Positions 36,711 to 57,284 of a DNA stretch of 64,000 bases are shown one piece after another (the first letter of the stretch is position 1; each line of letters begins with the position of its first letter). Origin of the DNA: Alphaproteobacteria bacterium (GTDB lineage Bacteria > Pseudomonadota > Alphaproteobacteria > UBA2966); assembly GCA_018654745.1 (NCBI GenBank), contig JABILA010000006.1, forward strand, positions 18,598-82,597. Reading direction: 5' to 3'. Under the pieces are notes generated by a model. That model was not told the DNA's origin and searched no databases. It worked only from the letters and a program-made list of their open reading frames with translations. Both the position numbers and the translations under genes were made by a program.

Positions 36711-36819
36711 TGATCGCGCGATGGGTGCGAACGGGGGATCACGCAGCCAGGGTTTTTCCACATCAGGTAAAATATCTGCTTCGTCATCTTGCCGCGTTCC
36801 CGGATGACAGACGCCCTGG

Positions 36820-40535: not shown

Positions 40536-40553
40536 CTTTCGATCCTTTAGAAT

Positions 40554-44786: not shown

Positions 44787-45799
44787 CGGATTGTCTCCCG
44801 TGCGCGATATATGATGTAGAGAAATACTGGCGCGCCAATGAAAGCCGTCAAAACGCCCAACCGCAACTGGGTGTGTCCCAAGGGCAAGCGTGTGGCGATG
44901 TCTGCAAGGGTCAATAATATCGCACCACCGATGGCACTTGGCAGCAAAATGTTGCGGGGTTCCGATCCGAAAATCGCCCGCATGATATGGGGGACCACAA
45001 GTCCGATAAAGGCGATTGAGCCGCAGACAGCGACAGACGCGCCAACACACAAGGCTGTACCCAGAACAATCGTCCAGCGCATGCGGTTAATCTTGACGCC
45101 CAGCGAATGCGCCGCATCTTCCCCCAGGGCCAGGGCATTTAATCCTTGACCAACAGTTGCCAGTAACGCCCAGCCAACCAGCACAAATGGCAACATCATC
45201 ATCAAATCTTCGGTGGTCCGGTTCTCAAGTGAGCCCAACAGCCAGAACACCATGTCCCGCAGGGACATAGGGGTCGGCGCAAAATTCATCACCAGCGAGA
45301 TACAGCCCGTTGCAAGCGAACTTATGCCAATGCCCGAGAGGATCAGGGTCAGAACCCGGCCGTCCCTAGATGCCAGTGCAAACAGCATGACAATTGCAAT
45401 AAAGGAAGTTCCCATGGCCATAACCGGTATGGCGTAAATCCACATGGCGGAAAGACCAAGGTAAATAGCTGTTACAGCCCCGAGCCCGGCACTGGCCGAA
45501 ACGCCAATGATGCCAGGGTCCGCCAGAGGATTGCGCAACAAGCCTTGTAGTGCGGCACCGGACAATCCCAGGGATGCTCCGGCACACAGGCCAATCAGGA
45601 CGCGGGGTAGTCTGAGTTCCTGAACAATCGTCGTCAGGGCAATATCGGCACTGCCAAATAATCCGGCGATAACCTCACCGCTTTGCAACGGGGCCTGGCC
45701 AAAAAACAGTGAACCAAACGCACAGGCCAGAAGCAACATGAAAGCTGCAGGCAATCGAAAATGTAGCCACACCGGGTTTGTCGCCTGGGCCTGGATCAC
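44783..45799 (-). CDS. btuC: FecCD-family ABC permease (BtuC-like)
   Basis: 338-aa multi-TM protein with the FecCD family pattern. Confidence 0.85.
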   Translation of the reverse strand: MIQAQATNPVWLHFRLPAAFMLLLACAFGSLFFGQAPLQSGEVIAGLFGSADIALTTIVQELRLPRVLIGLCAGASLGLSGAALQGLLRNPLADPGIIGVSASAGLGAVTAIYLGLSAMWIYAIPVMAMGTSFIAIVMLFALASRDGRVLTLILSGIGISSLATGCISLVMNFAPTPMSLRDMVFWLLGSLENRTTEDLMMMLPFVLVGWALLATVGQGLNALALGEDAAHSLGVKINRMRWTIVLGTALCVGASVAVCGSIAFIGLVVPHIMRAIFGSEPRNILLPSAIGGAILLTLADIATRLPLGHTQLRLGVLTAFIGAPVFLYIIYRARETIR

Positions 45800-46677
45800 G
45801 AGGACTTCCCCCTGGATTGTTGCGCGGCTTTGATCGCGTTGAGCTTGTCGACAACAAATTCTGCCGCGTCAACAAACGTAAAGGCCCGGCACGCCAACAA
45901 TCGACCCGGCACGAATATAGTCGGAATGTCCTTGAACATGCGTTTGACCACGGGATGGCGAAGCAGGCCCCAGTCAGAATGATGCACCGCTTTGCTGTCA
46001 AAAAAAGCGCCGATGATTACATCAGGCGGATCGACGATTAATGCTTCCAGTGGCAGGGTCCGCCAACCTTTCAGTCCCATGTCCGCAACCGCATTTCGCA
46101 TACCGGCCAGTCTGATAACTTCATCACCAAATGTCCCGGCGGCAGCCGTTGTGCCTCCCGCGGATAAATATATGGCGCGAAGTTTGCCCGTGCTGGACTG
46201 CTGTAGTTTTTGCAATCTGGCTTTGTAGACCTTGATGAATTCCTCACCAGCCTTTTCCCGCCCAAAGACCTTGGAAAACATCGCTACATTCTGGAAAACA
46301 TCATCGGTCTTCAGACCGGTTCTGGCTGAAACAACCTTTATGCCTGCCTGCTTCAGGTACGATCGCATACTGGCATTACCGCCCCAGTAGCGGATGACGA
46401 CATCAGGCTGCACATAAAGAAATTCTTCAATGCTGCCGGTTGTTCTTGGCAGCCCTTTGGCCCTGGATTTGTAGAAGGAATAATCCTGAATGGCCCGGTG
46501 CGACAGTGACGCAATTTGACTTCTGTCCGCCAGAGCCAATGCATATTGGTCCGAACAGTGATCCAGCGAGGAAATCCGTGGTAGCGCGTCCTGTGCCCGT
46601 GCAGGTTCCGCAACTAGTACAAAGGCGGTTGCCATCAATGCCGCCATCTGAATTCCCAAAGAGAAATCTATTTTCAC
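45796..46677 (-). CDS. btuF: periplasmic substrate-binding protein of the cobalamin/iron-siderophore ABC type (BtuF-like)
   Basis: Signal peptide plus a class III SBP body. Lies between cobB and btuC in a riboswitch-controlled operon. Confidence 0.75.
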   Translation of the reverse strand: MKIDFSLGIQMAALMATAFVLVAEPARAQDALPRISSLDHCSDQYALALADRSQIASLSHRAIQDYSFYKSRAKGLPRTTGSIEEFLYVQPDVVIRYWGGNASMRSYLKQAGIKVVSARTGLKTDDVFQNVAMFSKVFGREKAGEEFIKVYKARLQKLQQSSTGKLRAIYLSAGGTTAAAGTFGDEVIRLAGMRNAVADMGLKGWRTLPLEALIVDPPDVIIGAFFDSKAVHHSDWGLLRHPVVKRMFKDIPTIFVPGRLLACRAFTFVDAAEFVVDKLNAIKAAQQSRGKSS

Positions 46678-48020
46678 CCAAGTACTCCGTTGTTCTTGCC
46701 GCTTTTGAATATATCAGCAATCGCTGCAGGACAGGAGGGGAAATAGAAATGCACGTAACTGGCAACAAGGTTACCTACTGAATAGATCGCTTCACCTGGT
46801 TTGTTCAGTCGAACGGAAGTGGCACGTGCAACTGATTCAAGCGGTGTTTCCAGGGAGGAATAATGAAAGGTATGTCCGCGCAAAACACCGCTGGACATCG
46901 CCAGAGACTGTGCGCCAATTGCCGACAGTTTCGAATTGAGCTTGCCATGCCCAGGCAAAAGGCCTGCCATCTCCGCTTTTTTTCCGTCGACGCCTTCCAG
47001 AATATCCAGCAAATACAACAGGCCACCACATTCAGCCAAAATCGGGGTACCGGCTTCGTGTGCTGCCTTCATCGCAATTTTCATGGCAAGGTTTTGAGCC
47101 AGCTGATCCAGATGTAATTCCGGGTATCCACCAGGCAACCAGATCGCATCGCATTCCGGCAGCGTAATATCATTCAATGGTGAAAAGAATTTAACCTCCG
47201 CGCCCATGGCTTTGAGGCAACGAATGTTCGCAGCATAGGCAAATGAAAAGGCAGCATCATTTGCACAGGCAATGGTCATGCCCTCCAGATGTTGATCTAC
47301 AACATTCGGCTCACCGGAAACAAATTCGATTTCCTGCGGCAATTCGGCAAGCCGGGTCCCTTCGATCTGTTCAGCCAGGCGATCCAGCCGAACGTCCAGG
47401 TCTGAAATCTCGGCAGCCTGGAACAGACCAAGATGGCGGTCAGGCAGAACGGCTTCATTATCTCGCAGCATATGACCAAGATAGGGCACACCATCCGTTA
47501 GTGTTTCCGAAAGCATATCTGCATGCCCTGGACTGCCAACCTTGTTCGCCATAACACCGGCAAATGCCAATTCAGGATCATAGGTCGTAAATCCATGCAC
47601 AATCGCGCCAAAGCTTTGTGCCATGCCGCTGGCATCAACGGTCAACAAAACAGGCAGACCAAATTTCTTTGCAAGATCAGCACTGCTGGGGCTGCCGTCA
47701 TAAAGACCCATCACGCCTTCCACCAGGATCAGATCTGACTGGCTTGCAGCATCAGCCAATAGGGTCTGACAGGTCTCTTCGCCAACCATCCACAGATCAA
47801 GTTGCTCAACTCCGGCGCCACTTGCTTTTTCGAGGATCGTGGGATCGATAAAATCCGGCCCTGTCTTGAAGACCCGGACCCGCCGCCCCTGGTTGCGGTG
47901 GTATCGGGCCAGGGCAGCGGTGACCGTCGTTTTCCCCTGATTGGATGCAGGTGCCGCAACCATCATCGCCGGGCAACTTGCCCGGCGATCCGTTGAAGCT
48001 TCTTGAGCAGTCACTGACAT
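46674..48020 (-). CDS. cobB: cobyrinic/hydrogenobyrinic acid a,c-diamide synthase (CobB/CbiA)
   Basis: 448 aa. N-terminal ATPase (APASNQGKTTVTAAL) plus a C-terminal GATase domain. Confidence 0.85.
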   Translation of the reverse strand: MSVTAQEASTDRRASCPAMMVAAPASNQGKTTVTAALARYHRNQGRRVRVFKTGPDFIDPTILEKASGAGVEQLDLWMVGEETCQTLLADAASQSDLILVEGVMGLYDGSPSSADLAKKFGLPVLLTVDASGMAQSFGAIVHGFTTYDPELAFAGVMANKVGSPGHADMLSETLTDGVPYLGHMLRDNEAVLPDRHLGLFQAAEISDLDVRLDRLAEQIEGTRLAELPQEIEFVSGEPNVVDQHLEGMTIACANDAAFSFAYAANIRCLKAMGAEVKFFSPLNDITLPECDAIWLPGGYPELHLDQLAQNLAMKIAMKAAHEAGTPILAECGGLLYLLDILEGVDGKKAEMAGLLPGHGKLNSKLSAIGAQSLAMSSGVLRGHTFHYSSLETPLESVARATSVRLNKPGEAIYSVGNLVASYVHFYFPSCPAAIADIFKSGKNNGVLG

Positions 48021-48022
48021 CG

Positions 48023-49882
48023 TTAGTCCGCGTCTGGAACGTAGCGCAATCTGAGGAAATAATTGCGCTCGTCCTGGTTAAAGAATGAGGCCGTTTGATA
48101 GTCTTCGTCGAAGATATTGTTGGCACTCAATTCGACACTCCAATTGGGCTTGATCGCATAGGCACCGCGAAGATCAACCGTTTTGTAAGCGTCCAGCTTC
48201 CGGCTGTTGCTGGCGTTATCATACGCCACACCTGCATAACGCAATGTTGCACCGGCCTTGAAGTCATCAATTTGTCGACTGACCGTCACATTCGTTTGCC
48301 ATTTGGGCCGTCGTGTCAGCTGGTTATCTCGATTGGATCCGTCTGCGCGATTTTTGGCATCAATATAATTGGCGTTGCCATTTATATCCCACTTGGCCCA
48401 TGTCATGCGACCTTCAGCTTCGACGCCCCGAATGCGGGCTGAATTGATGTTGCCGGCCAATGATGTGTCTGAATCAAACGCGATCAGGTCTTTGACGTTT
48501 GTCTGGTAGGCGTAAACCGCCCAGGTACCAAGGCTTTGTGTACCGCGTACACCAACTTCATAGGACCTGGATTCTTCCGGCCTGTTTGAGGTCGAGCCGA
48601 AACCCGGAAAATACAATTCATTGAACGTTGGTGCATTATAGGCTGTGCCATAGCTCGCCAACACTTCCAGATCAGGCCGTATGTTATAGCCCCAGGCAAG
48701 ACTTCCTGTGTAATGATTGCCAAATTGCTCGTTATCGTCACCGCGCAAACTGAGCTGCGTATTGTGATCGCCAAATTCACCTATGTACTGACCAAATGCA
48801 CCATAGTTGTACCGCTCGGTCTCTGCATAGGACGTGGTGCTGTCGACTTTATCGTTCAGATAGTCCACGCCAACAACAACCGTATCCGTGTCGGAGACGC
48901 TGACGTTGTTTTGCCAACTGACATTGTCCCGCACGGTATTAAACTTTGAGGAAAAGGCACCGTTAAAATAGTTACTGCCCAAATCCCAGCTGCGCGCAGC
49001 TGTAACCTTGATGTCCCAGATGTCGTTGATACCTTTATCGGCATTTACACCCAGCAGGCGCTGTTTGTCCTTCGAGGAATTCTGTGAACTGCCATCAAAT
49101 TCCGTTGTATCGTTGGCAACCTGAGCCAGCAGTTCCAGCTCAAAATCATTTTCGAATTCATGCGATACGCTGCCCGAAAACGATCGTTGTTTATAGCCAT
49201 CCTTGTCCGTTTCGATAACACGACATCCGCTGGCAGGTTTGGTCTGACCATCGCCACAACTGTTGAACCCGTCCGAACGACGAAAGCCAACATTGGCGGC
49301 GAATTGGGTCTTGCCGGAACTGCCGGTTATGCCTGTATTGGCTTCTACAGTGTTGTGACTGCCATAACCGATGGAGCCGGAATGTCTGGTTTTTTTGCTG
49401 CCCTTGCGGGTGAATATCTGAACAACACCGCCAATGGCACTTGATCCATAAAGATGCGACCGCGGGCCCCGAACGATCTCGATACGTTCAATCTGGTCAA
49501 CCGGGATGTGCTGAAGTGAAACCTGACCGGACGTTGCCGATCCGACACGAGCGCCATCAATAAGGACCAGAACGTGATTGTTTTCAGAACCACGCAGGGA
49601 AATTGTTGTGGATTTACCAAGGCCACCACTGTTGACCATCGATATACCTGGTAAATCCCGTACCAGATCCTGAATATCCTTGGGCTGCTTTTCTTCGATC
49701 GCTTCACGGGTGATGACGGTCACCGGTGACAAACTTTCATCAACGGTTTGGGCGATCCTGGAACCGGTTACAATGATTTCCTTGTTCGCGGAAATGTCTG
49801 CCGCCTGGGCAGCTAATGGCAGGACCATGGAACCGGCAACAATTACCAGTTTCCAGCCCAGGCCTTGGGTCGAAATCTTCAT
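48023..49882 (-). CDS. btuB: TonB-dependent outer-membrane receptor, vitamin B12/corrinoid type (BtuB-like)
   Basis: Signal peptide, TonB box (EIIVTGSR), plug domain and a C-terminal aromatic residue (F) after the 22-strand barrel region. Directly downstream of a B12 riboswitch. Confidence 0.85.
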   Translation of the reverse strand: MKISTQGLGWKLVIVAGSMVLPLAAQAADISANKEIIVTGSRIAQTVDESLSPVTVITREAIEEKQPKDIQDLVRDLPGISMVNSGGLGKSTTISLRGSENNHVLVLIDGARVGSATSGQVSLQHIPVDQIERIEIVRGPRSHLYGSSAIGGVVQIFTRKGSKKTRHSGSIGYGSHNTVEANTGITGSSGKTQFAANVGFRRSDGFNSCGDGQTKPASGCRVIETDKDGYKQRSFSGSVSHEFENDFELELLAQVANDTTEFDGSSQNSSKDKQRLLGVNADKGINDIWDIKVTAARSWDLGSNYFNGAFSSKFNTVRDNVSWQNNVSVSDTDTVVVGVDYLNDKVDSTTSYAETERYNYGAFGQYIGEFGDHNTQLSLRGDDNEQFGNHYTGSLAWGYNIRPDLEVLASYGTAYNAPTFNELYFPGFGSTSNRPEESRSYEVGVRGTQSLGTWAVYAYQTNVKDLIAFDSDTSLAGNINSARIRGVEAEGRMTWAKWDINGNANYIDAKNRADGSNRDNQLTRRPKWQTNVTVSRQIDDFKAGATLRYAGVAYDNASNSRKLDAYKTVDLRGAYAIKPNWSVELSANNIFDEDYQTASFFNQDERNYFLRLRYVPDAD

Positions 49883-50004
49883 GAAGATACTCCGTTCGTT
49901 CGCCTTGAATGGCGTTAATTACGAACGGCGATGTCAGGGGTGTCAGGGATGCGGTCAAAAAACCATATCATTCCTGCCGAGCCGCCCCACGCAGCGCCGC
50001 AATG

Positions 50005-50235
50005 AAATACGTTTGGCCGGTCTCCGGACTTGCGAGGTAACCAGAACACTTGCTCTGATAATTGAACCGCACCTTCCCATGACAAATATTCAGTCACAGT
50101 GGTCGTCTTGCGGCCCATACAATCGCTTACCGTTGCGGGGGCAGTGCTGGAATTGCGGACCGTATCAAGTGGTCAACTCACCAGCTTCCCGTTTATCGCC
50201 GTACTTACGAAAGCATCGACGATCACCAAAAGTAG
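50005..50235 (-). promoter_or_regulatory. cobalamin riboswitch (minus strand) controlling the btuB...cobO operon
   Basis: Minus-strand sequence ...AACGGGAAGCTGGTGAGTTGACCACTTGATACGGTCCGCAATTCCAGCACTGCCCCCGCAACGGTAAGC...AGTCCGGAGACCGGCC. Near-consensus B12 box. Confidence 0.8.
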
Positions 50236-50237
50236 AG

Positions 50238-50272
50238 GCAGTATTTAGAGAACTTGCCCTGATATTGTCAAG
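50238..50272 (-). promoter_or_regulatory. candidate sigma70 promoter for the minus-strand riboswitch/btuB operon
   Basis: Minus strand TTGACA-18 nt-TAAATA, immediately upstream of the riboswitch aptamer. Confidence 0.3.
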
Positions 50273-50317: not shown

Positions 50318-50485
50318 CTTTGGCACTAGAACCGATGAGTTCATTGGTGCTGGCATATCGGCTGAGCAAGACGATGCCAGATAATCGGGAAGCGGGTTCA
50401 AGTCCCGCGCTACCCACGTAACGGTGAGGAATTTGTGCCACGAGGCACAGTTTCACAGTCCGGAACCGGCCATTGAAATTTGATC
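50318..50485 (+). promoter_or_regulatory. cobalamin riboswitch (plus strand) controlling the cobN-like/exbB-like/DUF2149 operon
   Basis: ...AATCGGGAAGCGGGTTCAAGTCCCGCGCTACCCACGTAACGGTGAGG...AGTCCGGAACCGGCC. Variant B12 box. Divergent from the minus-strand riboswitch. Confidence 0.7.
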
Positions 50486-50641
50486 TCAAACAAGGTGCGT
50501 TGGGCGCCAGAGGATTCTGATGAATTGTTTTTCTGACTGCTATTCCGCATCAACGCCAAAGCTGGCGTTACGGATTTGTGCGTCAATCAAGCTGCATCTG
50601 TCGTCTGACTGCTTGTCCACTTCAATGGAAGTAACACAGCA

Positions 50642-53600
50642 ATGTCAAAAACGGGATGGCTTGCAGGCCTGATCTCAATATTTCTGATCACTGCGACAGC
50701 CAATGCAAAAGAACGCATATTTGGCGTCGTCTCTGATCGTTCTGCAGCCGAACTTGCTTCGGGTGCCGCACTATTTCTGACGCAACAGCCGAATTTTTCA
50801 ATCGCCCTGAGAACACCAACACAATTTTCGGGCATGAGCGATGCCGACATTGTAAAAGAGATTAAATCTGCTGATGCCGTCTTCAGTGGCGCTGTTTTTG
50901 GCGATCAGGTCAGCCGACTTATGCGCCTTGTCAAACAGGCTGGCAAACAAAGACCCTTTCTCGGCATCAATTCAGATCATCGCCTTGTTCGCCTCTCCCA
51001 GGATCAAAAAGGGATGCTGTTTTCTGGTGTCTCCAGCAGTGATATCCGCGAACTGGCCAAGGGGCCGAGGGAGGCCGAAAGTTATCTGGCATGGCATGAA
51101 CGCCGCCGCACAGCCAATCCCCGTCAGGCAACATGGATTGACGCAAAATCCTATTGGCAGGCAAGGGGTCGCAACAACCTGGCGTCATTTTTTGCTGTCA
51201 TTGCGCGTGCCATCAAACCAGGTGTTGCCCCTGGAAAGCTTGTTCCCCGGGCCGATGTCAGAACCTGGTTTGATGGCCGTATGGTCGAAAATCCGGGGAA
51301 GCTATTGCCTGTGAAGAAGCCATGGATTGCGATCATTGACCACGATACCGGGGATCGCAGCGGCGATATCGACACAACGGAACAGCTTTGCAAAAAGGCA
51401 AATGATGCAGCATTGAATTGCGTTGCCTTTTTTGCCCGTTGGGGTGCGGCAAGTGGTGAAGCCTTGCTGATGATTGAAAAATTGGCAAAAACCAGCCCCC
51501 TGCAAGGCGTTGTGTCCTTGCAGGACTTTGTCATTGGCGGTGGCGACGCGCGTGCAACTGCACTTGAGACAATCGAACGTCTGGATGTGCCTGTGATCAA
51601 GGGAATTCGGCTTACCGAGGCGACCGAAGATGCATGGGCTTTTTCTACGGATGGCCTGCCCTGGAAGTCCGTTCACTACAGGGTATCAATGCCCGAACTT
51701 CAGGGCGTTAGCCAACCCATCGTCATGGCAGCGGCAACTCCGGTTAATATTGATCCTGTTACCGGCGTTCGTCTTGTCTCGACGATGCCGATTGATGAGC
51801 AGATTTCTTTGGCAATAGACAGATTGGCCGCCTGGCAGCGATTGGGGGCAACGCCGAACAAGGACAAGAAGGTCGCCATTGTTTATTACAATCACCCTCC
51901 GGGTCGCCACAACATTGGTGCCGACAATCTGGATGTACCGGCGTCCCTGTTCGAGATTCTGAACCGCCTCAAAGCTGCCGGATACAATACCGGCCTCTTG
52001 CCAAAATCATCAAAGGACTTGCTCGATCTTATCCAGGACCGGGGTGTGAACCTGCCTGAGGATCGTGCCGCGATTGCGGATATGTCGAACAGGGTCGTGC
52101 GCGTATCTACTCCTGAATATCGCTCCTGGTTTGAGAAATTACCAAAAATATTACAGGCAGAAATGGCGGGTGGACCGTTGTCATTTCTGGCGGCACGCGT
52201 CAGTGACGCGCTTGAAAAACAACAATTGCAGGCTGCCCGTAAACTGATAGATCGAATAACTGCCGATGTCAGACATGTGCTGGATGGTGCAGATCACCCG
52301 GCGAAAAAGCGCGCCATCAATCTGCTGGAACAATTGAATACGGCATACGACGTCTGGCATGAAAACCCGGCTCTGCCTTCTGCGAAGCAGAAAGCCATGA
52401 AATTAACCCGGGCGCTCATCAAGACAGGTATCGAAGGCCTGCGCGGCTGGGGAGAAGCCCCGGGTGAGATCATGACCTACAAGGGTGACATCCTTTTGCC
52501 GGGAATCACATTTGGCAATGTGTTCATTGGCCCCCAACCCCCACGTGGTTGGGAGCTTAACGAGGAATTGCTTCACGCCAACATGAGCTTTCCGCCGCCG
52601 CACCAATATATGGCCTTCTATTTCTGGCTGAAATATGCCCACAAGGCGGACGCCATTGTTCATCTTGGTCGACATTCGACCTATGAATTTTTACCACGGA
52701 GAAGCGTTGGCGTGGGACCTGCGGACTATTCCTGGCACATCGCCTCAACCATTCCCGGAATTTATCCCTACATCGTCGACGGTGTCGGTGAGGGTATTCA
52801 GGCCAAAAGACGCGGCCTGGAAGTCATGATCGACCACCTGACGCCGCCCCTGAGCGCAACGCCCTTGTACGACGAATTGCTTGAGTTGCGCCAACTAATT
52901 GAAACCTATGAGGCCGCCAATGGGGAAGGTCAGTCCTCCGTTCGAACCAGATCCCTGGACGCGATGCGTTTGAAGATCGATGCCCTCAATTTGAAGGAGG
53001 AACTTTCAGCTTCCATGGATGCTGAACTGAAAATTCGGGGCATAACCTTTGATCAGGCGGATGGGGAGTTTCTGGTGCATGAGGTCGGGCACTATTTGAC
53101 CAAACTGCAAGAAGATTTTATGCCGCTGGGTCTTCACGTATTTGGCCGCGACTGGAGCGACAAGGCAGTCAACGTCATGTTGGACTCCATGCTGCAGGGT
53201 GATCAGAAGAAATCTGGCGAATCCGATCTCTGGAGAGCCAACCTAAAAAAATCTCCTGCTGCGGAAATCAAATCCCTGCTGCAAGCGCTGGAGGGAAAAT
53301 TTGTATCACCCGGCAAGGGAAATGATCCCATTCGAACTCCGGAGTCCTTGCCCACCGGTCGCAATTTCTTTGCCCTTGATGGCTCGGTACTACCAACCCG
53401 TCTGGGTCATGCTCTTGGCGTCGAACTGGCAACCAAATCCGATACAGGTTCGCGTAATACCGAAGATGGTCGGGAAGCGATAATTTTGTGGGCATCCGAT
53501 ACGGTCCGGGACGAAGGCGCCATGATTGCCTTTGGCTTACAATTGCTGGGCGTTGAGCCCCAATGGAACAGTCGCGGTATCGTCCGGGGTGTAAAACGCA

Positions 53601-55003
53601 TGGCGCTGAAAGACGAACAAGTTCGTAAAGATACAGTTTTCATAACATCCGGGTTGTTTCGTGATCTTTACGGTCAGCAACTGGCGCTGTTGGATAATGC
53701 TGTATTGCTGGCCCTCGATGGTGCGTCGCAAACAATCCGGAATACTTACCCGAAACTCGGACCCGCCCTTGATGCAGCCCTGGATCCCCTGGGCACATCG
53801 GTTTCAAACGGCGGTGAAAATCTCACACAGAACGAAGTTGCAGCCCACTGGGTTAAGGATGCACTTGCCGAATTGCAAGCCGGCGTTGATGCAGCGAAGG
53901 CTGGCAGGCAAGCAGGCATGCGTATCTTCGGAACCGCCCCTGGCAGCTATGGCGCAGGTGTGAACCGGTTGGTTGAACGCTCCGGTGCCTGGGAAGACCG
54001 CAAGGAACTGGGTGCCGCCTATATCAAGCGCATGGGACATGCCTATGGTATGAATCGACAAGGTGTTGCGTCGCAGGAAACCTTCAAACGAAATCTGGCG
54101 CGAGTGGAAAATACCTACCTGGGACGCGGCAGTAATCTCTATGGTTTCATCGATAACAATGACGCCTTCGACTATCTAGGCGGCCTCAGTCTCGCCGTTG
54201 AAACCCTGACCGGATCAGCGCCCAATAATCGCGTCATTCATCATGCAGACCCAAACAACGCGTCCATGGAACCTTTGACGTCGGCCTTGTTGGCTGAATT
54301 GCGCGGTCGGTTCCTGAATCCGGAGTGGCTAAAGCCCCTGATGAAACACGACTATGCCGGGGCCCGAACCATGGGATCGGAATTTATGGAATATCTGTGG
54401 GGCTGGCAGGTGACCAATCCCGACATCATCACCAGTCGGGTCTGGGACGATGTCAAAGATGTCTATCTGGATGACAAATACGGCCTTGGCCTGGACGAGT
54501 TTCTAGAGTCAGGACAGAACATTCACGTCAAAACCAACATGATGGCAATTATGTTGGTATCGGCACAAAAAGGATTCTGGACACCGGACGAAAAGACACT
54601 TGATGATTTGTCAAAAGAGTTCGTCGAAAAGATTTTGGAAAACGGTTTACCCGGAAGTGGTCACACCACACCGGATCATCCCATGTTCAAATGGATCACC
54701 CCCCGCCTTGATGTAGCGACGGCAAAAGCATTGGAAGAACTATTGGATTCTGCCCGTTTACCAATGCCGGAAGTGACGCCAACGATTACCACTGTTCAGG
54801 AAGTTGAAGTTACAGAAATCGAACCCCAACCTCGCGAGCCTGAAGAACCCAAATCCCGCAACCCCGAACAAGGTGACCCCGAAGAAGTGCTGGAGGCTGA
54901 CATCCCCGACTATGGCATCTGGCTACTGCTCCTGATGTCGGGCGTTCTTGTTTTTGGCGTCGTCAATGGCCGCCGTTCTATTCGCCGTGGAGGCATCAAA
55001 TGA
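50642..55003 (+). CDS. CobN/Mg-chelatase-like large protein with N-terminal signal peptide and C-terminal membrane anchor (HmuS-like periplasmic (de)chelatase candidate)
   Basis: 1453 aa. Signal peptide MSKTGWLAGLISIFLITATANA. CobN-family blocks (e.g. PTGRNFFALDGSVLPTRLGHALG...LQLLGVEPQWN). C-terminal TM helix (GIWLLLLMSGVLVFGVV). Preceded by a B12 riboswitch. Confidence 0.8.
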   Translation: MSKTGWLAGLISIFLITATANAKERIFGVVSDRSAAELASGAALFLTQQPNFSIALRTPTQFSGMSDADIVKEIKSADAVFSGAVFGDQVSRLMRLVKQAGKQRPFLGINSDHRLVRLSQDQKGMLFSGVSSSDIRELAKGPREAESYLAWHERRRTANPRQATWIDAKSYWQARGRNNLASFFAVIARAIKPGVAPGKLVPRADVRTWFDGRMVENPGKLLPVKKPWIAIIDHDTGDRSGDIDTTEQLCKKANDAALNCVAFFARWGAASGEALLMIEKLAKTSPLQGVVSLQDFVIGGGDARATALETIERLDVPVIKGIRLTEATEDAWAFSTDGLPWKSVHYRVSMPELQGVSQPIVMAAATPVNIDPVTGVRLVSTMPIDEQISLAIDRLAAWQRLGATPNKDKKVAIVYYNHPPGRHNIGADNLDVPASLFEILNRLKAAGYNTGLLPKSSKDLLDLIQDRGVNLPEDRAAIADMSNRVVRVSTPEYRSWFEKLPKILQAEMAGGPLSFLAARVSDALEKQQLQAARKLIDRITADVRHVLDGADHPAKKRAINLLEQLNTAYDVWHENPALPSAKQKAMKLTRALIKTGIEGLRGWGEAPGEIMTYKGDILLPGITFGNVFIGPQPPRGWELNEELLHANMSFPPPHQYMAFYFWLKYAHKADAIVHLGRHSTYEFLPRRSVGVGPADYSWHIASTIPGIYPYIVDGVGEGIQAKRRGLEVMIDHLTPPLSATPLYDELLELRQLIETYEAANGEGQSSVRTRSLDAMRLKIDALNLKEELSASMDAELKIRGITFDQADGEFLVHEVGHYLTKLQEDFMPLGLHVFGRDWSDKAVNVMLDSMLQGDQKKSGESDLWRANLKKSPAAEIKSLLQALEGKFVSPGKGNDPIRTPESLPTGRNFFALDGSVLPTRLGHALGVELATKSDTGSRNTEDGREAIILWASDTVRDEGAMIAFGLQLLGVEPQWNSRGIVRGVKRMALKDEQVRKDTVFITSGLFRDLYGQQLALLDNAVLLALDGASQTIRNTYPKLGPALDAALDPLGTSVSNGGENLTQNEVAAHWVKDALAELQAGVDAAKAGRQAGMRIFGTAPGSYGAGVNRLVERSGAWEDRKELGAAYIKRMGHAYGMNRQGVASQETFKRNLARVENTYLGRGSNLYGFIDNNDAFDYLGGLSLAVETLTGSAPNNRVIHHADPNNASMEPLTSALLAELRGRFLNPEWLKPLMKHDYAGARTMGSEFMEYLWGWQVTNPDIITSRVWDDVKDVYLDDKYGLGLDEFLESGQNIHVKTNMMAIMLVSAQKGFWTPDEKTLDDLSKEFVEKILENGLPGSGHTTPDHPMFKWITPRLDVATAKALEELLDSARLPMPEVTPTITTVQEVEVTEIEPQPREPEEPKSRNPEQGDPEEVLEADIPDYGIWLLLLMSGVLVFGVVNGRRSIRRGGIK

Positions 55004-55458
55004 GCATTTACACATCTGCCATGTTCCTGACAGGCGCGACACACAGTTTTGTCGGCTGGTTGCTTTATCCCGTCATTGCCGCCCTGATCGTGCTGGTCAC
55101 AATGTCCCTGTTTGAAATCGGCACATCAATCGGTGAACGTTTCTGGGGCCTGAAAGAGATGCGCAAGCAAAGCCTGGATCTTGTCCAGGCACATGGCCGT
55201 CGCCGCATTGAACGAGCCGATCTTCTGGCCCGCATCGCACCAATGTTGGGCTTGATGGGAACCTTGATTCCATTGGGACCGGGGTTAGCCGGTCTCGGCC
55301 AGGGTGATCTTGGTGCCCTGACGGATGCGATCATGATCGCCTTCGACACTACTGTTCTTGGTCTGTTGGCGGGTGCCATCGGATTTGCCATTGGTCGCTT
55401 GCGGCGACGTTGGTACGACGAGTTGATGGACCTGATGGAAAACGGAGAAACACTATGA
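55000..55458 (+). CDS. MotA/TolQ/ExbB-family proton-channel protein (short form)
   Basis: ATGA overlap with the cobN-like stop. 152 aa with three TM segments and the MotA/ExbB C-terminal pattern (LGLMGTLIPLGPGLAGLG). Confidence 0.7.
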   Translation: MSIYTSAMFLTGATHSFVGWLLYPVIAALIVLVTMSLFEIGTSIGERFWGLKEMRKQSLDLVQAHGRRRIERADLLARIAPMLGLMGTLIPLGPGLAGLGQGDLGALTDAIMIAFDTTVLGLLAGAIGFAIGRLRRRWYDELMDLMENGETL

Positions 55459-55754
55459 CCGCGCGGAAGTGGCGATCCAGCCGGTTCACCGCACAGGATG
55501 ACGAACCCCTTGGTCCCCTCGCCAACCTTGTTGATATCATGCTGGTGTTCGCCTGCGGATTAATCGCGGCATTGTTTGCGCTCAGTCCTGATCTGGCGAA
55601 AAACCTGTCGCAAAAATCTGTAACAATCAGCGAAGGTCGCGAATTACCCGAGTTGCCTGAAGGATATGGCAAGGGTGGCGCAGGCCTGACACCGCTGGGA
55701 CAGGTCTATCGCGATCCAAAAACCGGCAAGCTTATTTTGATCGGACAGGAATAG
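55455..55754 (+). CDS. small DUF2149-like membrane protein (ExbD-like partner)
   Basis: Start moved to Met 55455 (ATGA overlap, GGAGAAA RBS). About 99 aa with a single TM segment (LANLVDIMLVFACGLIAALFAL). This family typically accompanies CobN-like + MotA/ExbB genes. Confidence 0.5.
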   Translation: MTARKWRSSRFTAQDDEPLGPLANLVDIMLVFACGLIAALFALSPDLAKNLSQKSVTISEGRELPELPEGYGKGGAGLTPLGQVYRDPKTGKLILIGQE

Positions 55755-56430
55755 CCGAAGATTGATTTTGGTTCTGGTTTGGGTTTTGGTTCAGGTACTG
55801 GACACTCCAGGTTATGCTTTGATTGTCGCTTGAATTTTCGGAAGAGACATAGCGCGTCGTCCGGGTCAGGGACAATGGATCGATCTGAAGGCGCAATGCC
55901 TGTTCGGGCGTAAGGTCAAGTGCAAGCGCGACGGCGGCCCGAATAACACCGGCGTGGGCAACGACCACAATATTTTCAACGCCCGAAAAGTCTTCGTGGT
56001 CGCAAAGAGCGATTATTTCCTTCTGGACGCGGGATGCCATCGTGGCAAAACTCTCACCGTCTGGCGGCGCGGTATTGCCCGGATCTCGCCAAAATTCGGC
56101 GGCATCCCTGATGGCTGGTGTGTCGTAAGACTGTTCTTCCCAGGCGCCAAAATCCTGCTCCACAAATGCCGGGTTGATGTCTGGCACGACATCCGGATTG
56201 TGCGAAACCTGTAACAATGCCTCTGCTGTCTGTCGGCACCGGGACATGGGAGATACAATCCAGCTTGCCTTCTCAGGGAGTGACAGGGCAAAACCCTTGA
56301 GACATTCCTGGTCAGGCAATATGGCAGGCACATCCGTGGACCCAATCATGCAACCAGACCGGCCTGTGGGGGCATGTCGTATCCACCACCAGTTTAGATT
56401 TTGATTCGTCTGACTGTCAGCGCCGCTCAC
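55732..56430 (-). CDS. histidine phosphatase (phosphoglycerate-mutase-like) family protein; possible alpha-ribazole-5'-phosphate phosphatase
   Basis: RHAPTG (RHG-type) catalytic motif near the N-terminus. GTG start at 56430 forms a GTGA overlap with the upstream methyltransferase stop. NQ-rich C-terminal tail encoded by a hexanucleotide repeat. Adjacent to the cob region. Confidence 0.5.
   Translation of the reverse strand: MSGADSQTNQNLNWWWIRHAPTGRSGCMIGSTDVPAILPDQECLKGFALSLPEKASWIVSPMSRCRQTAEALLQVSHNPDVVPDINPAFVEQDFGAWEEQSYDTPAIRDAAEFWRDPGNTAPPDGESFATMASRVQKEIIALCDHEDFSGVENIVVVAHAGVIRAAVALALDLTPEQALRLQIDPLSLTRTTRYVSSENSSDNQSITWSVQYLNQNPNQNQNQSSAIPVRSK
55766..55796. repeat. tandem hexanucleotide repeat (GTTYNG)x5
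   Basis: GTTTTG GTTCTG GTTTGG GTTTTG GTTCAG. Encodes NQNPNQNQNQ at the C-terminus of the minus-strand phosphatase ORF, at the convergent junction with the DUF2149 gene. Confidence 0.5.
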
Positions 56431-57284
56431 GGGGCGTTCTGCGTCGACTTGCGTGCCAGAAACCTGCCGCCGCCAAGGTGGCCTTTTTCGATTTGATCGA
56501 CATAAAGCGTGTAGACACGATCCCATCGTCGAAAGGCCTCGATGCCCAAAAGATCAATCGTTTGGGCTTCAAGACCGCGATACATCTCCAGACGCTGGCG
56601 TAATATGACACCCCATCGAGCACCCAGGTCTTCTATGTCCTCAACCACACATCCAGATGCTTCCAGCAGCTCCCGATACCCTGCCAGGGTCCCTAACTCG
56701 CTATAGCCAAGACCTTGCTCCAGGACTTCCCGGTGATCAGCACGTAACCCTGTGCACTCAAGAATGTCTGTGAAGGCAAGATAGCCACCCACTTTGGTCA
56801 CACGGACACATTCTGCTATCAATCGCTTTTTATCAGGAATATGGCACCAGGCTTCCTGGCCGATAACCACATCAAATTTCTGATCCGGAAACGGATTTTC
56901 GAGAGCATTGGCGACCTGGAAATCGACCTGGCCTGACATTTTTGTCATTTCCGTCAGCCGCTTTGCACCCTCAACCCGGCTTTGCGTCAAATCAATTCCC
57001 GTGACTGTGCAGCCGTAATTATGGGCAAGATATCGTGCCGGTCCCCCCATTCCGGAAGCAACATCAAGGACATGACTATCGGTCTTTATGCCCGCAGATT
57101 GTGCCAACTTGTCGATGGCTTCAACGCCATCGTAATGGTCCATATCGTAATTCTGGAGAATATCTTCGTTCAAGGTCGACAGGTCGATATCATCCAGTTT
57201 CAACTTGTCGACAATTTGCTGCTCATTGATCGGATGCGCGTCATAGATATCCACGACGCTGCGGGCATGCGCTTCAATGCTCAT
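56427..57284 (-). CDS. class I SAM-dependent methyltransferase, phosphoethanolamine/sarcosine N-methyltransferase-like
   Basis: SAM motif I (VLDVASGMGGPARYL), post-I acidic residue (GIDL) and motif II/III (FDVVIGQEAWCHIPDKKRL...VGGYLAFTD), closely resembling PEAMT-type domains. Confidence 0.7.
   Translation of the reverse strand: MSIEAHARSVVDIYDAHPINEQQIVDKLKLDDIDLSTLNEDILQNYDMDHYDGVEAIDKLAQSAGIKTDSHVLDVASGMGGPARYLAHNYGCTVTGIDLTQSRVEGAKRLTEMTKMSGQVDFQVANALENPFPDQKFDVVIGQEAWCHIPDKKRLIAECVRVTKVGGYLAFTDILECTGLRADHREVLEQGLGYSELGTLAGYRELLEASGCVVEDIEDLGARWGVILRQRLEMYRGLEAQTIDLLGIEAFRRWDRVYTLYVDQIEKGHLGGGRFLARKSTQNAP

What the first reader, a model, noticed from the sequence alone, without database searches (positions are those of the whole stretch)
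50642..55754. B12-riboswitch-controlled operon encoding a secreted, membrane-anchored CobN-like chelatase with MotA/ExbB-like and DUF2149-like partners
This CobN-family protein (1453 aa) is not the cytoplasmic cobaltochelatase large subunit. It carries an N-terminal signal peptide and a C-terminal TM anchor, and no ChlI/ChlD (CobS/CobT AAA+) partner is present. It is translationally coupled (ATGA overlaps) to a short MotA/TolQ/ExbB-like proton-channel protein and a about 99-aa single-TM DUF2149-like protein. The architecture (TonB-dependent receptor nearby, CobN-like, ExbB-like) parallels the HmuR/S/T/U heme system of Porphyromonas, where the CobN-like protein is thought to act as a periplasmic dechelatase. 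Here it sits behind a cobalamin riboswitch and opposite btuB, which suggests an energised periplasmic corrinoid or metalloporphyrin processing step (metal removal, insertion or remodelling) during salvage. This class is genomically recurrent but biochemically uncharacterised.
Basis: partly seen in the sequence, partly recalled or inferred. Interest (0 to 1): 0.78.

Follow-up and report, generated by a model that had tools for sequence, protein, structure and literature searches.

The report
B12-controlled exported chelatase with proton motor
A vitamin-B12-sensing RNA switch controls a three-gene unit encoding a CobN-type chelatase exported outside the inner membrane and its own small proton-driven motor; hundreds of bacterial species have this unit, its chemistry is untested, and it most likely handles B12-like molecules during scavenging.

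Summary
ORF 50642-55003 is a 1453-aa CobN/Mg-chelatase-fold protein with a signal peptide and a C-terminal membrane helix. It is joined by ATGA overlaps to a 152-aa MotA/ExbB protein and a 99-aa DUF2149 protein. It lies behind a cobalamin riboswitch and opposite a riboswitch-controlled btuB-cobB-btuFCD-cobQ-cbiB-cobD-cobO operon.

It is not cytoplasmic CobN: it misses every NCBIfam CobN/BchH cutoff and forms its own clade (200/200 bootstraps). The clade occurs in at least 546 species genomes. In 80 fetched loci the ExbB-like gene is present in 80 and DUF2149 in 78. A riboswitch precedes the gene or its operon in 67. A TonB-dependent receptor is nearby in only 36, and no AAA+ chelatase subunit, HmuT or HmuY is found.

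It belongs to the exported BtuS/HmuS branch. It lacks HmuS's Met-rich insertion and carries CobN's Asp where the porphyrin enzymes carry His.

Best reading: a proton-motor-driven periplasmic enzyme acting on the metal centre of a corrinoid during salvage, more likely inserting cobalt than removing it. The family was named in 2003 and riboswitch-linked hmu-like operons were noted in 2023, so this is a new member of a known but biochemically untested kind.

The parts
50328..50488 (+). Cobalamin riboswitch aptamer controlling the three-gene module
   Evidence: Rfam RF00174, 62.3 bits against a gathering score of 31.5, E 5e-13, full model 1-189. It ends 154 nt before the ATG. In related loci an equivalent element lies a median of 160 nt upstream in 51 of 80, and heads a longer operon in 16 of 80.
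50642..55003 (+). Exported, C-terminally anchored class I chelatase-fold protein (CobN/ChlH/HmuS superfamily, BtuS/HmuS branch), 1453 aa
   Evidence: Pfam CobN-Mg_chel 788.9 bits. Below all NCBIfam CobN/BchH cutoffs. PDB phmmer scores: HmuS 341.6, CobN 321.6, ChlH 321.4 bits. Own clade in 200 of 200 bootstraps.
50642..50707 (+). Signal peptide, residues 1-22, MSKTGWLAGLISIFLITATANA, with predicted cleavage after A-N-A
   Evidence: Read directly from the translation. A hydrophobic N-terminal stretch is found in 109 of 120 homologues; the eight weakest are mostly mis-called starts.
51389..51421 (+). The protein's only two cysteines (C250, C260), a probable periplasmic disulfide
   Evidence: Invariant in alignment A1. 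The pattern is found in 114 of 120 homologues. It is absent from cytoplasmic CobN, BchH and the HmuS-like protein.
52661..52792 (+). Core catalytic motifs shared by the superfamily: H674-L-G-R-H678-S-T and G-V-G-E717-G-I-Q-A-K-R-R
   Evidence: Both His and the Glu align with the same residues in HmuS, CobN and BchH. H674/H678 lie in the HFGTHG motif that holds HmuS His-538, which is reported conserved across the superfamily. The CobN preprint names H554, E593 and D1100 as putatively critical residues of the site holding two Co2+ ions; equating E717 with E593 is my inference from motif conservation.
54152..54172 (+). Clade signature D1171-N-N-D1174-A-F-D1177 at the second metal-ligand site
   Evidence: The motif DNNDxFD occurs in 119 of 120 homologues. 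D1174 aligns with His in HmuS (H1209), an HmuS-like protein, ChlH and BchH. It aligns with Asp in five CobN sequences.
54683..54913 (+). Variable acidic, Pro/Glu-rich linker (about residues 1348-1424) between the last chelatase domain and the membrane helix
   Evidence: Read from the translation. The C-terminal tails of the homologues are poorly conserved and acidic.
54914..54970 (+). C-terminal transmembrane helix (residues 1425-1443) ending in G1439-x3-G1443-R-R, followed by a basic cytoplasmic tail
   Evidence: G1439 and G1443 are invariant in A1. The helix is present in 119 of 120 homologues. It is lost together with the motor genes on a Marinobacter plasmid.
55000..55458 (+). Minimal ExbB/TolQ/MotA-type proton-channel subunit, 152 aa, three predicted membrane helices
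   Evidence: Pfam MotA_ExbB, 39.3 bits against a cutoff of 22.9. ATGA overlap with the upstream gene. Present in 80 of 80 loci. The motifs PMLGLMGTLIPLGPGL and AFDTTVLGLL are conserved.
55455..55754 (+). DUF2149 protein, 99 aa: one membrane helix with an invariant Asp27, then a conserved C-terminal beta-hairpin. A probable minimal ExbD/TolR-type partner.
   Evidence: Pfam DUF2149, 34.9 bits against a cutoff of 27.1. ATGA overlap. Present in 78 of 80 loci. Invariant D27 in 'PLANLxDxMLVF'. The AF2 model shows helix 22-43 and strands 83-86 and 93-96, at pLDDT 66.6.
49998..50245 (-). Divergent cobalamin riboswitch controlling the btuB operon
   Evidence: Rfam RF00174, 97.8 bits, E 3.6e-23.
48023..49882 (-). 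BtuB-like TonB-dependent corrinoid receptor
   Evidence: Pfam Plug and TonB_dep_Rec_b-barrel. Best NCBIfam match is TIGR01779 (TonB-B12), 563.6 bits against a cutoff of 599.7.
39912..48020 (-). Rest of the btuB operon: cobB (46674-48020), btuF-like (45796-46677), btuC (44783-45799), btuD (43986-44786), cobQ (42523-43989), cbiB (41573-42526), cobD threonine-phosphate decarboxylase (40554-41618), cobO (39912-40535)
   Evidence: Pfam. NCBIfam: CobB, CobQ and CobD pass their cutoffs. Gene calls on identical contigs.
55732..56526 (-). Convergent alpha-ribazole-phosphatase-like (CobC) gene whose 3' end overlaps the DUF2149 gene by 23 nt
   Evidence: Pfam His_Phos_1. Best NCBIfam match is TIGR03162 (ribazole_cobC), 96.9 bits, below its cutoff of 162.9. 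Called as 205 or 232 aa on identical contigs.
36558..39181 (+). Third cobalamin riboswitch (36558-36709) followed by cobU, cobT and cobS. This marks the left edge of the B12 locus.
   Evidence: Rfam 56.8 bits. Pfam CobU, DBI_PRT and CobS.

Best explanation
What it is: a cobalamin-riboswitch-controlled three-gene module. It encodes an exported class I chelatase-fold enzyme of the BtuS/HmuS branch of the CobN/ChlH superfamily. The enzyme is tethered to the inner membrane by a C-terminal helix. The other two genes encode a dedicated, minimal ExbB-like/ExbD-like (DUF2149) proton-channel pair.

Proposed working:
1. When adenosylcobalamin is scarce, the riboswitch allows expression.
2. The enzyme is exported by the Sec pathway and sits in the periplasm, held by an acidic linker and a GxxxG-containing helix next to the ExbB-like/DUF2149 complex.
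3. Proton flow through that complex (invariant Asp in the DUF2149 helix, conserved Thr motifs in the ExbB-like helices) supplies the mechanical work. In the ATP-containing cytoplasm, AAA+ CobS/CobT or ChlI/ChlD supply that work to CobN/ChlH.
4. The enzyme acts on the metal centre of a corrinoid that has entered through BtuB.
5. The product is imported by BtuFCD and finished by the CobB, CobO, CobQ, CbiB/CobD and CobU/T/S enzymes encoded alongside.

I favour cobalt insertion (or re-insertion) into a metal-free or incomplete corrinoid over cobalt removal.

Shown: gene content, export signals, family placement, conservation of the module, riboswitch control, and association with late and salvage B12 genes.
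Inferred: coupling of the motor to the enzyme, the corrinoid substrate, and the direction of the reaction.
For: Module and family:
- Pfam, NCBIfam and PDB searches and an NJ tree place the protein in its own clade. Support for a sister relation to an HmuS-like protein is moderate (139 of 200 bootstraps).
- At least 546 species genomes carry a relative that contains the clade-specific peptides.

The motor belongs to the enzyme, not to a receptor:
- The ExbB-like gene is in 80 of 80 loci and DUF2149 in 78 of 80. In most loci both lie directly downstream on the same strand.
- A TonB-dependent receptor lies within 10 kb in only 36 of 80 loci.
- No ChlI/ChlD-type AAA+ gene is present in any locus.
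- Proton-path residues are conserved.
- The anchor helix has an invariant G-x3-G and is present in 119 of 120 homologues.
- The one natural variant without the helix (Marinobacter plasmid) has also lost both motor genes while keeping the signal peptide.
- In CobSTN the motor adaptor CobT grips the C-terminal domain VI of CobN. That is the end from which the tether emerges here.

Corrinoid substrate:
- A riboswitch precedes the gene or its operon in 67 of 80 loci. Rfam confirmed the strong hits among the 12 loci it was run on.
- Late-pathway or salvage genes lie in the flanks of 38 of 80 loci, against essentially no ring-synthesis genes and no HoxN transporter.
- In 9-10 loci the operon continues with an exported CbiZ (adenosylcobinamide amidohydrolase) and an exported C-N hydrolase. 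The cytoplasmic CobD and CbiB genes are often adjacent.
- The second metal-ligand position carries Asp as in five CobN sequences, not the His of four porphyrin enzymes.

Insertion rather than removal:
- The gene repeatedly sits in operons with cobB and cobO/cobQ, where cobN would be expected. With a chelatase, those loci would encode every step from hydrogenobyrinate to cobalamin.
- Expression is repressed by B12.
- Azotobacter vinelandii carries the module (L060). A. vinelandii DJ is reported to lack the whole corrin-ring limb, including cobalt insertion (PMC4465626). Harvesting cobalt for de novo synthesis is therefore not a general explanation.
Against: - There is no biochemical data for this clade.
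- The only characterised enzyme with this architecture, HmuS, removes metal rather than inserting it.
- Canonical CobN uses the a,c-diamide made by cytoplasmic CobB. A periplasmic enzyme acting before import would have to accept a different substrate.
- Environmental metal-free corrinoids are thought to be rare (my knowledge, not tested here).
- Similarity of DUF2149 to ExbD could not be shown by sequence. hhalign gave probability 2% and E 0.024, although the Asp residues aligned. The AF2 model was low-confidence.
- The HmuS literature assigns HmuU/HmuV to powering the outer-membrane receptor.
- The two closest relatives (Binatia, L001 and L002) have no detectable riboswitch and no B12 genes nearby.
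- The A. vinelandii argument mixes two strains.
- The His/Asp signature rests on nine reference sequences.
Confidence: 0.45

Rival explanations
1. Cobalt-releasing de-chelatase. Like HmuS with heme, the enzyme strips the metal from an imported cobalt chelate, such as unusable or degraded corrinoids. This would feed Co2+ to cytoplasmic B12 synthesis when B12 is low. The exported CbiZ and amidase would act as a disassembly line ahead of it.
For: - The closest characterised relative with the same architecture and partners is a de-chelatase.
- The Zur-regulated Pseudomonas aeruginosa PA1922-1925 cluster suggests that metal-starvation control is a theme of the class.
- B12 riboswitches commonly control cobalt uptake genes.
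- Exported CbiZ and C-N hydrolase could reverse CbiB and CobQ.
- PepSY_TM proteins, which resemble periplasmic reductases, follow riboswitch-controlled receptors in five loci.
- Many carriers are Pseudomonas or Azotobacter, genera known to make B12.
Against: - The module sits with late-pathway and salvage genes, not with ring synthesis or cobalt transporters: CobH 0, CobI 0 and HoxN 0 of 80 loci.
- CobD and CbiB in the same operons imply that the corrin is rebuilt, not discarded.
- The module is present in A. vinelandii, whose strain DJ lacks the ring limb and cobalt insertion.
- Removing cobalt from a corrin has no chemical or enzymatic precedent (my knowledge).
- The HmuS axial His is replaced by the CobN-type Asp.
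Confidence: 0.2
2. The ExbB-like/DUF2149 pair is an extra Ton-type energiser for BtuB, working with a TonB encoded elsewhere. The CobN-like protein works independently of it.
For: This is the role the HmuS literature assigns to HmuU/HmuV. PA1924 was likewise proposed to serve the PA1922 receptor. In this window btuB lies directly opposite.
Against: - 44 of 80 loci have no receptor within 10 kb, yet all keep the pair next to the CobN-like gene.
- No tonB is part of the module.
- DUF2149 lacks the globular periplasmic domain of ExbD.
- The anchor helix and the pair are lost together on the Marinobacter plasmid, although that operon retains its receptor.
Confidence: 0.15
3. A corrinoid handler that does not change the metal. 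The protein binds the corrinoid and uses motor energy to displace axial ligands (base-on to base-off) or to hand it to the exported CbiZ and to BtuF. This would assist remodelling of unusable cobamides.
For: It shares operons with exported CbiZ and C-N hydrolase and with CbiB/CobD. In HmuS and CobN the head/neck interface is proposed to bind or deliver tetrapyrroles.
Against: The catalytic His/Glu/Asp constellation is strictly conserved across the clade, which argues for chemistry at the metal site. Most loci lack CbiZ.
Confidence: 0.15
4. An ordinary cytoplasmic CobN with a mis-called start, or an orthologue of the heme de-chelatase HmuS.
For: Public annotation names these proteins 'cobaltochelatase subunit CobN'. 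HmuS gives the best PDB score.
Against: - The scores are far below every CobN equivalog cutoff.
- The signal peptide, the Cys pair and the anchor helix are conserved.
- There is no AAA+ partner.
- Against HmuS: only about 25% identity to an HmuS-like protein, no Met-rich insertion, no HmuY or HmuT, Asp instead of His-1209, and B12 rather than iron control.
Confidence: 0.03

Closest known systems
HmuS-HmuU-HmuV of the Bacteroidota hmuYRSTUV heme-utilisation operon (B. thetaiotaomicron HmuS, PDB 9D26)
   Same: It has the same three-part core. The first part is an exported CobN-fold protein of about 1450 aa with an N-terminal signal or helix and a C-terminal helix. It is followed by a MotA/ExbB protein and a DUF2149 protein. 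HmuS gives the best PDB score and an HmuS-like protein is the moderately supported sister group. The His and Glu core motifs are shared.
   Different: Identity to an HmuS-like protein is only about 25%. There is no HmuY hemophore and no HmuT. The roughly 200-aa Met-rich insertion is absent: 94 residues here against 291 in HmuS. HmuS His-1209 is Asp here. Control is by a cobalamin riboswitch and the neighbours are B12 genes rather than iron- or heme-related. The N-terminal 280 residues, which hold the HmuS heme ligands Met-79 and His-254, do not align.
BtuS family (Rodionov et al. 2003), including B. fragilis BtuS1
   Same: [quoted passage not shown] It is distinct from CobN and ChlH and was predicted to serve metalloporphyrin salvage. 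In B. fragilis an hmu-like operon is preceded by a cobalamin riboswitch. The window protein fits this description.
   Different: I could not read the 2003 paper, so its exact criteria are untested. The Bacteroides proteins studied experimentally were examined only for heme iron. The largely proteobacterial clade found here has no experimental data.
CobNST aerobic cobaltochelatase
   Same: The catalytic fold is the same. The His, Glu and Asp site residues are conserved, including the CobN-type Asp at the position that is His in the porphyrin enzymes. Like cobN, the gene sits in operons beside cobB, cobO and cobQ and is controlled by B12.
   Different: CobN is cytoplasmic, has no signal peptide or anchor, and needs the AAA+ CobS hexamer and the CobT adaptor. 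This protein is exported, has no AAA+ partner, scores far below the CobN model cutoffs, and forms a separate clade.
Pseudomonas aeruginosa PA1922-PA1925 (Zur-regulated receptor, CobN-like protein, 'ExbD' and a hypothetical protein)
   Same: The literature describes a CobN-like gene with an ExbB/D-type gene and a small hypothetical protein, induced by starvation for a metal.
   Different: That cluster is controlled by zinc (Zur), not by B12, and always includes a receptor. I did not retrieve its sequences, so its relation to this clade is untested.
ExbB-ExbD-TonB and TolQ-TolR-TolA proton-driven motors
   Same: The ExbB-like protein passes the Pfam MotA_ExbB cutoff and keeps the conserved Thr-containing helix motifs. 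DUF2149 has a single helix with an invariant Asp that aligns with ExbD Asp25 and TolR Asp23. A third protein is anchored by a single helix and extends into the periplasm.
   Different: Both subunits are minimal: 152 aa against 244 aa for E. coli ExbB, and 99 aa with no globular periplasmic domain. The third component is anchored by its C-terminus, not its N-terminus, and is an enzyme rather than TonB or TolA. Homology of DUF2149 to ExbD was not statistically supported here.

Membership tests
Canonical cobaltochelatase large subunit CobN | Scores above the curated NCBIfam CobN equivalog cutoffs | tested here: not met
   Best hit is NF004645 at 593.8 bits against a cutoff of 1619. TIGR02257 gives 470.8 against 822. 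All nine CobN/BchH models fall below their cutoffs.
Canonical cobaltochelatase large subunit CobN | Cytoplasmic, soluble, without signal peptide or membrane helix | tested here: not met
   A signal peptide, a C-terminal helix and a conserved Cys pair are present. The fetched Ralstonia, Alloyangia and Halobaculum CobN lack them.
Canonical cobaltochelatase large subunit CobN | Works with AAA+ CobS/CobT (or ChlI/ChlD) subunits, usually encoded nearby | tested here: not met
   None was found among the window ORFs scanned. A search with the Ralstonia ChlID protein found none in 80 loci. Genome-wide absence could not be tested.
Canonical cobaltochelatase large subunit CobN | Conserved metal-site residues (His, Glu, Asp) | tested here: met
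   H674/H678, E717 and D1171/D1174 align with the CobN residues.
HmuS heme de-chelatase | Exported, membrane-anchored CobN-fold protein followed by ExbB-like (HmuU) and DUF2149 (HmuV) proteins | tested here: met
HmuS heme de-chelatase | Part of a complete hmuYRSTUV operon with the HmuY hemophore and HmuT | tested here: not met
   No HmuY or HmuT homologue was found in 80 loci. No Pfam family consistent with either was found among the window ORFs scanned.
HmuS heme de-chelatase | Methionine-rich insertion that doubles the length of domain IV | tested here: not met
   The window has 94 residues (5 Met) where HmuS has about 291.
HmuS heme de-chelatase | His-538, His-1209 and Glu-1212 at the central cleft | tested here: not met
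   The His-538 equivalent is present. His-1209 is Asp1174 and Glu-1212 is Asp1177. Both are invariant in the clade.
HmuS heme de-chelatase | Head/neck heme ligands Met-79 and His-254 | tested here: inconclusive
   The phmmer alignment begins only at HmuS residue 283, so the N-terminal domains do not align by sequence. No structural comparison was made.
BtuS family (Rodionov 2003) | CobN-related protein distinct from CobN and ChlH, associated with B12-type receptors or B12 regulatory elements | tested here: met
   It forms a separate clade, is under riboswitch control, and has btuB opposite. The criteria are taken second-hand from PMC6460266; the original paper was not available.
Cobalamin riboswitch (RF00174) | Reaches the Rfam gathering score over the full model | tested here: met
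   62.3 bits against 31.5, model positions 1-189.
ExbB/ExbD-type proton motor | ExbB/TolQ/MotA-family subunit | tested here: met
   Pfam PF01618, 39.3 bits against a cutoff of 22.9. Conserved helix motifs.
ExbB/ExbD-type proton motor | ExbD/TolR-family subunit with an essential Asp in its membrane helix | tested here: inconclusive
   An invariant Asp27 is present and aligns with the ExbD/TolR Asp. However, hhalign gives probability 2% and E 0.024. Pfam reports only DUF2149. The AF2 model is low-confidence. The literature states that HmuV resembles ExbD.
ExbB/ExbD-type proton motor | TonB/TolA-type N-terminally anchored partner | tested here: not met
   No such gene is in the module. The only anchored partner is the C-terminally anchored CobN-like protein. 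A tonB gene elsewhere in the genome cannot be excluded.

The most novel reading that the evidence does not exclude
This would be a third way of powering a class I chelatase. A periplasmic cobalt chelatase would be driven by a dedicated ExbB/ExbD-like proton motor instead of an AAA+ ATPase. That would let bacteria lacking the corrin-ring pathway metalate imported metal-free corrinoids (hydrogenobyrinate type) outside the cytoplasm and complete them to B12. It would also reassign HmuU/HmuV and their relatives from 'receptor energisers' to 'enzyme motors'.
Probability: 0.25. Interest if true: 0.85.

Novelty: new member of a known kind. Interest (0 to 1): 0.6.

Why it matters
B12 is made by few microbes and scavenged by most, and the known salvage routes start from cobalt-containing corrinoids. 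A widespread, B12-regulated, exported chelatase-fold enzyme with its own proton motor points to an unrecognised periplasmic step in corrinoid salvage. The module is in at least 546 species genomes, including Pseudomonas, Azotobacter, Vibrio, many marine Gammaproteobacteria, Nitrospirota and Nitrospinota.

If that step inserts cobalt, metal-free corrinoids would become a shared resource in cobalt-poor waters. If it removes cobalt, it would be the first corrin de-metalation known.

Either way, the comparative data argue that the ExbB-like/DUF2149 pair serves the enzyme rather than an outer-membrane receptor. That makes a testable prediction for the medically relevant HmuS heme system as well. 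It would also extend the range of outputs of ExbB/TolQ/MotA-type motors to driving an enzyme.

Tried and rejected
1. DUF2149 against ExbD.
- Profile-profile comparison with the genuine E. coli sequences aligned the helix Asp residues, but at probability 2%. I therefore do not claim homology from my own tests.
2. Structure of DUF2149.
- With database homologues the model had pLDDT 66.6. That is too low for a meaningful fold search, so none was run.
3. The full protein exceeds the 1200-aa limit for structure prediction, so no model of it was made.
4. The first tree script timed out. It was redone with faster distances. The result is an NJ tree with only six outgroup sequences, not a maximum-likelihood tree.
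5. A regular expression for the N-terminal motif failed on most loci. It was replaced by tblastn anchoring.
6. Weak nhmmer riboswitch hits (E above 1e-3 in L038, L047 and L068) were not confirmed by Rfam and are counted as absent.
7. P0024 looked like a natural variant without the anchor helix, but it is a frameshift-split gene with the motor genes present.
8. The Rodionov 2003 paper could not be retrieved.
9. A literature search for B12 auxotrophy of Colwellia relatives found nothing.
11. Rejected readings: cytoplasmic CobN with a wrong start, and an HmuS orthologue (see the rival explanations).

Full report
**Observation**

The window holds three co-directional ORFs at 50642-55754.
- The first (1453 aa) matches Pfam CobN-Mg_chel at 788.9 bits.
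- The second (152 aa) matches MotA_ExbB at 39.3 bits against a cutoff of 22.9.
- The third matches DUF2149 at 34.9 bits against a cutoff of 27.1. From its ATG at 55455 it is 99 aa.

Both junctions are ATGA overlaps.

The large protein starts with MSKTGWLAGLISIFLITATANA|KE, a textbook Sec signal. It ends with a hydrophobic helix followed by RRSIRRGGIK. Rfam places a full-length cobalamin riboswitch at 50328-50488 (+), 154 nt before the ATG. A second, divergent riboswitch at 49998-50245 (-) lies in front of a TonB-dependent receptor. That receptor's best NCBIfam match is the B12 receptor model.

The receptor heads an operon with cobB, btuF-like, btuC, btuD, cobQ, cbiB, cobD and cobO. A third riboswitch at 36558-36709 precedes cobU-cobT-cobS. 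A CobC-like phosphatase gene converges on the DUF2149 gene. The other large ORFs scanned are unrelated and include no AAA+ chelatase subunit, CobW or TonB.

**Family placement**

The protein falls far below the curated cutoffs of all nine NCBIfam CobN/BchH models. Against solved structures it is about equally distant from the heme de-chelatase HmuS (341.6 bits), CobN (321.6) and ChlH (321.4).

A database search returned more than 1000 relatives. The best 120 are all 1390-1530 aa and 49-58% identical (apart from the window's own sequence), from Gammaproteobacteria, Nitrospirota, Nitrospinota and others. A scan of one genome per species with two clade-specific peptides (YYNHPPGR, PQPPRGWE) found at least 546 genomes. 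I kept 80 loci.

I built a neighbour-joining tree on 1085 columns. It included:
- a bona fide hmu-operon protein (Aureibacter);
- a cobN next to chlID (Ralstonia);
- a cobW-cobN-cobG cluster (Alloyangia);
- an archaeal cobN;
- a bchH.

The tree gives the B12 clade 200 of 200 bootstraps, canonical CobN 200 of 200, and a sister relation of the B12 clade to the HmuS-like protein 139 of 200. Identity to all outgroups is 25-28%.

The protein is therefore not a cytoplasmic CobN. It belongs with the exported BtuS/HmuS type, a 'third kind' of CobN relative named by Rodionov in 2003 (as cited).

**Export is a clade property**

A hydrophobic N-terminal stretch is present in 109 of 120 homologues; the eight weakest are mostly mis-called starts. 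A C-terminal helix is present in 119 of 120. The single exception is a frameshift-split gene.

The helix ends in an invariant G-x3-G followed by basic residues. The window protein has only two cysteines in 1453 residues. Both are invariant in the clade and absent from cytoplasmic CobN, BchH and the HmuS-like protein, as expected for a periplasmic disulfide.

**The module is conserved**

In the 80 loci an ExbB-like gene is present in 80 and DUF2149 in 78. In most loci both lie directly downstream on the same strand. The two loci lacking DUF2149 are contig ends, and one locus has the pair elsewhere.

A TonB-dependent receptor lies within 10 kb in only 36 of 80 loci. No ChlI/ChlD-type AAA+ protein, HmuT or HmuY occurs in any of them.

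The ExbB-like protein keeps the motifs PMLGLMGTLIPLGPGL and AFDTTVLGLL. DUF2149 keeps an invariant Asp in its single helix ('PLANLxDxMLVF') and a conserved C-terminal hairpin.

My own tests could not establish DUF2149-ExbD homology (hhalign probability 2%; AF2 pLDDT 66.6). Published modelling of HmuU/HmuV does describe them as ExbB- and ExbD-like.

A Marinobacter plasmid carries a clade member (48% identity) inside a receptor-btuFCD-cobB-X-cobO-cobQ-bluB operon. It keeps the signal peptide but lacks the anchor helix and both motor genes. This is a single natural case in which anchor and motor disappear together.

**Regulation and neighbours**

I built a profile from 14 Rfam-confirmed cobalamin riboswitches.
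- It finds one on the same strand within 600 nt upstream of the gene in 51 of 80 loci (median 160 nt).
- It finds one heading a longer operon that contains the gene in 16 more.
- Of the 13 without a hit, six have short upstream flanks, and two are the Binatia genomes that are the window's closest relatives.

Rfam, run on 12 of the loci, confirmed the strong hits there and rejected three weak ones, which I count as absent.

Late-pathway or salvage genes (cobB/cbiA, cobO, cobQ, cbiB, cobD, cobU/T/S, btuFC) lie in the flanks of 38 of 80 loci. Ring-synthesis genes are essentially absent (CobH 0, CobI 0), and so is a HoxN-type cobalt transporter (0). In several phyla the gene sits between or beside cobB and cobO/cobQ in one operon with btuB.

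In 9-10 loci the operon continues with a CbiZ-domain protein and a C-N hydrolase. Both carry signal peptides or lipoboxes. cobD and cbiB are often adjacent. This points to corrinoid processing in the periplasm.

**Active site**

The two His of the 'HxGxHG/S' motif and the Glu of 'G-E-G-x-x-A-K-R-R' are conserved in every group. The His motif is the one holding HmuS His-538, reported conserved across the superfamily. The CobN preprint names H554, E593 and D1100 as putatively critical residues of the site where two Co2+ ions are seen.

At the second ligand position the groups differ:
- The porphyrin enzymes have His: B. thetaiotaomicron HmuS H1209, the Aureibacter protein, Synechocystis ChlH and Thiodictyon BchH.
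- Five CobN sequences have Asp.
- The B12 clade has Asp. The motif DNNDxFD occurs in 119 of 120 homologues.

The clade also lacks the Met-rich insertion of HmuS: 94 residues here against about 291. The site therefore looks catalytically competent and more CobN-like than HmuS-like, although this rests on nine reference sequences.

**Mechanism**

Shown:
- an exported, membrane-tethered chelatase-fold enzyme with an intact metal site;
- obligate linkage to an ExbB-like/DUF2149 pair irrespective of any receptor;
- absence of AAA+ partners in the module;
- B12-repressible expression;
- association with corrinoid transport, late synthesis and, in some lineages, exported corrinoid hydrolases.

Inferred:
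- The pair is the enzyme's motor. It replaces the AAA+ CobS/CobT or ChlI/ChlD machines, which cannot work in the ATP-free periplasm.
- In CobSTN the adaptor CobT grips the C-terminal domain VI of CobN. In the exported enzyme the tether to the membrane leaves from that same end, so a pull on the tether would act on the same handle.
- The substrate is most probably a corrinoid.

For the direction of the reaction I lean to cobalt insertion (or re-insertion), for three reasons.
- The gene occupies the cobN position in operons that would then encode every step from hydrogenobyrinate to cobalamin.
- Co-operonic cobD and cbiB imply that the corrin is rebuilt.
- A. vinelandii has the module (L060), while strain DJ is reported to lack the whole ring limb, including cobalt insertion.

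The main counter-argument is that the only characterised relative, HmuS, removes metal.

**Comparison with what is known, and novelty**

The closest system is HmuS/HmuU/HmuV. The family name BtuS dates from 2003. Meslé et al. (2023) already noted hmu-like operons behind cobalamin riboswitches and the ExbB/ExbD likeness of HmuU/HmuV. A Zur-regulated counterpart exists in P. aeruginosa.

The window therefore holds a new member of a known, bioinformatically described kind whose B12-regulated branch has never been tested.

Three results from this analysis were not stated in the papers I could read:
- The motor genes track the enzyme rather than a receptor.
- The anchor helix is conserved and is lost together with the motor.
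- The metal-site residue follows the macrocycle type.

Together these make a specific, testable claim: a proton-driven class I chelatase.

**Limits**

- There is no biochemistry for this clade.
- The tree is distance-based with few outgroups.
- Riboswitch counts rest partly on an nhmmer profile.
- The 80 loci are the closest relatives, so the statistics describe this clade only.

Noticed in passing
L017 15172-17342; L020 12072-14296; L023 6795-8953; L029 13292-15391; L049 6158-8448; L052 15239-17473; L057 15166-17315; L059 15199-17339; L068 14983-17285: In Cellvibrionales, Arenicella and related genomes the riboswitch-controlled operon continues after DUF2149 with two more genes. One is a roughly 430-aa CbiZ-domain protein (adenosylcobinamide amidohydrolase, PF01955) carrying a signal peptide and an unassigned C-terminal extension. 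The other is a roughly 300-aa C-N hydrolase (PF00795) carrying a signal peptide or lipobox. To my knowledge an exported CbiZ has not been described. Together they suggest disassembly or remodelling of corrinoids in the periplasm.
   Followed up: partly
L089 6992-11194 (Marinobacter sp. M3C plasmid NZ_CP092285.1): This is a member of the same clade (48% identity) with a signal peptide but no C-terminal membrane helix and no ExbB-like or DUF2149 genes. It lies between cobyrinate a,c-diamide synthase and cobO in a receptor-btuFCD-cobB-X-cobO-cobQ-bluB operon. It is either a motor-independent soluble periplasmic form or a decaying gene.
   Followed up: partly
L003 7881-9329; L004 17435-18880; L006 8323-9405; L073 8293-9861; L078 5140-6807: PepSY-associated transmembrane proteins (PF03929) lie next to BtuB-like receptors close to the module; in four of the five loci the receptor is preceded by a cobalamin riboswitch. 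From my knowledge this family includes periplasm-facing siderophore reductases. That hints at redox chemistry on imported cobalt complexes.
   Followed up: no
L001 and L002 (Candidatus Binatia MAGs), whole loci: These are the closest relatives of the window protein (58-59% identity). They keep the three-gene module, but no cobalamin riboswitch was detected (nhmmer for both; Rfam run on L001 only) and there are no B12 genes within 10 kb. B12 control is therefore not universal in the clade.
   Followed up: partly
window 39178-39885 (+): A 235-aa ORF directly after cobS, inside the B12 locus. It has no Pfam or NCBIfam match and no homologue in the 80 loci. It may be spurious or lineage-specific.
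   Followed up: partly
window 55732-57284 (-): A CobC-like histidine phosphatase gene overlaps the 3' end of the DUF2149 gene by 23 nt in convergent orientation. Upstream of it lies a class I SAM methyltransferase of unknown role, with weak matches that include a corrinoid-protein-associated methyltransferase model.
   Followed up: no
L030 19944-21191; L041 3938-4963; L075 3241-4440 and 7971-9023: CobW-like COG0523 GTPase genes lie within 10 kb of the module in three loci. It is unclear whether they relate to cobalt or to zinc.
   Followed up: no
window 50489-50641: The 154-nt spacer between the riboswitch aptamer and the start codon contains no consensus intrinsic terminator. The expression platform (sequestration of the ribosome-binding site, or Rho-dependent termination) was not worked out.
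   Followed up: no
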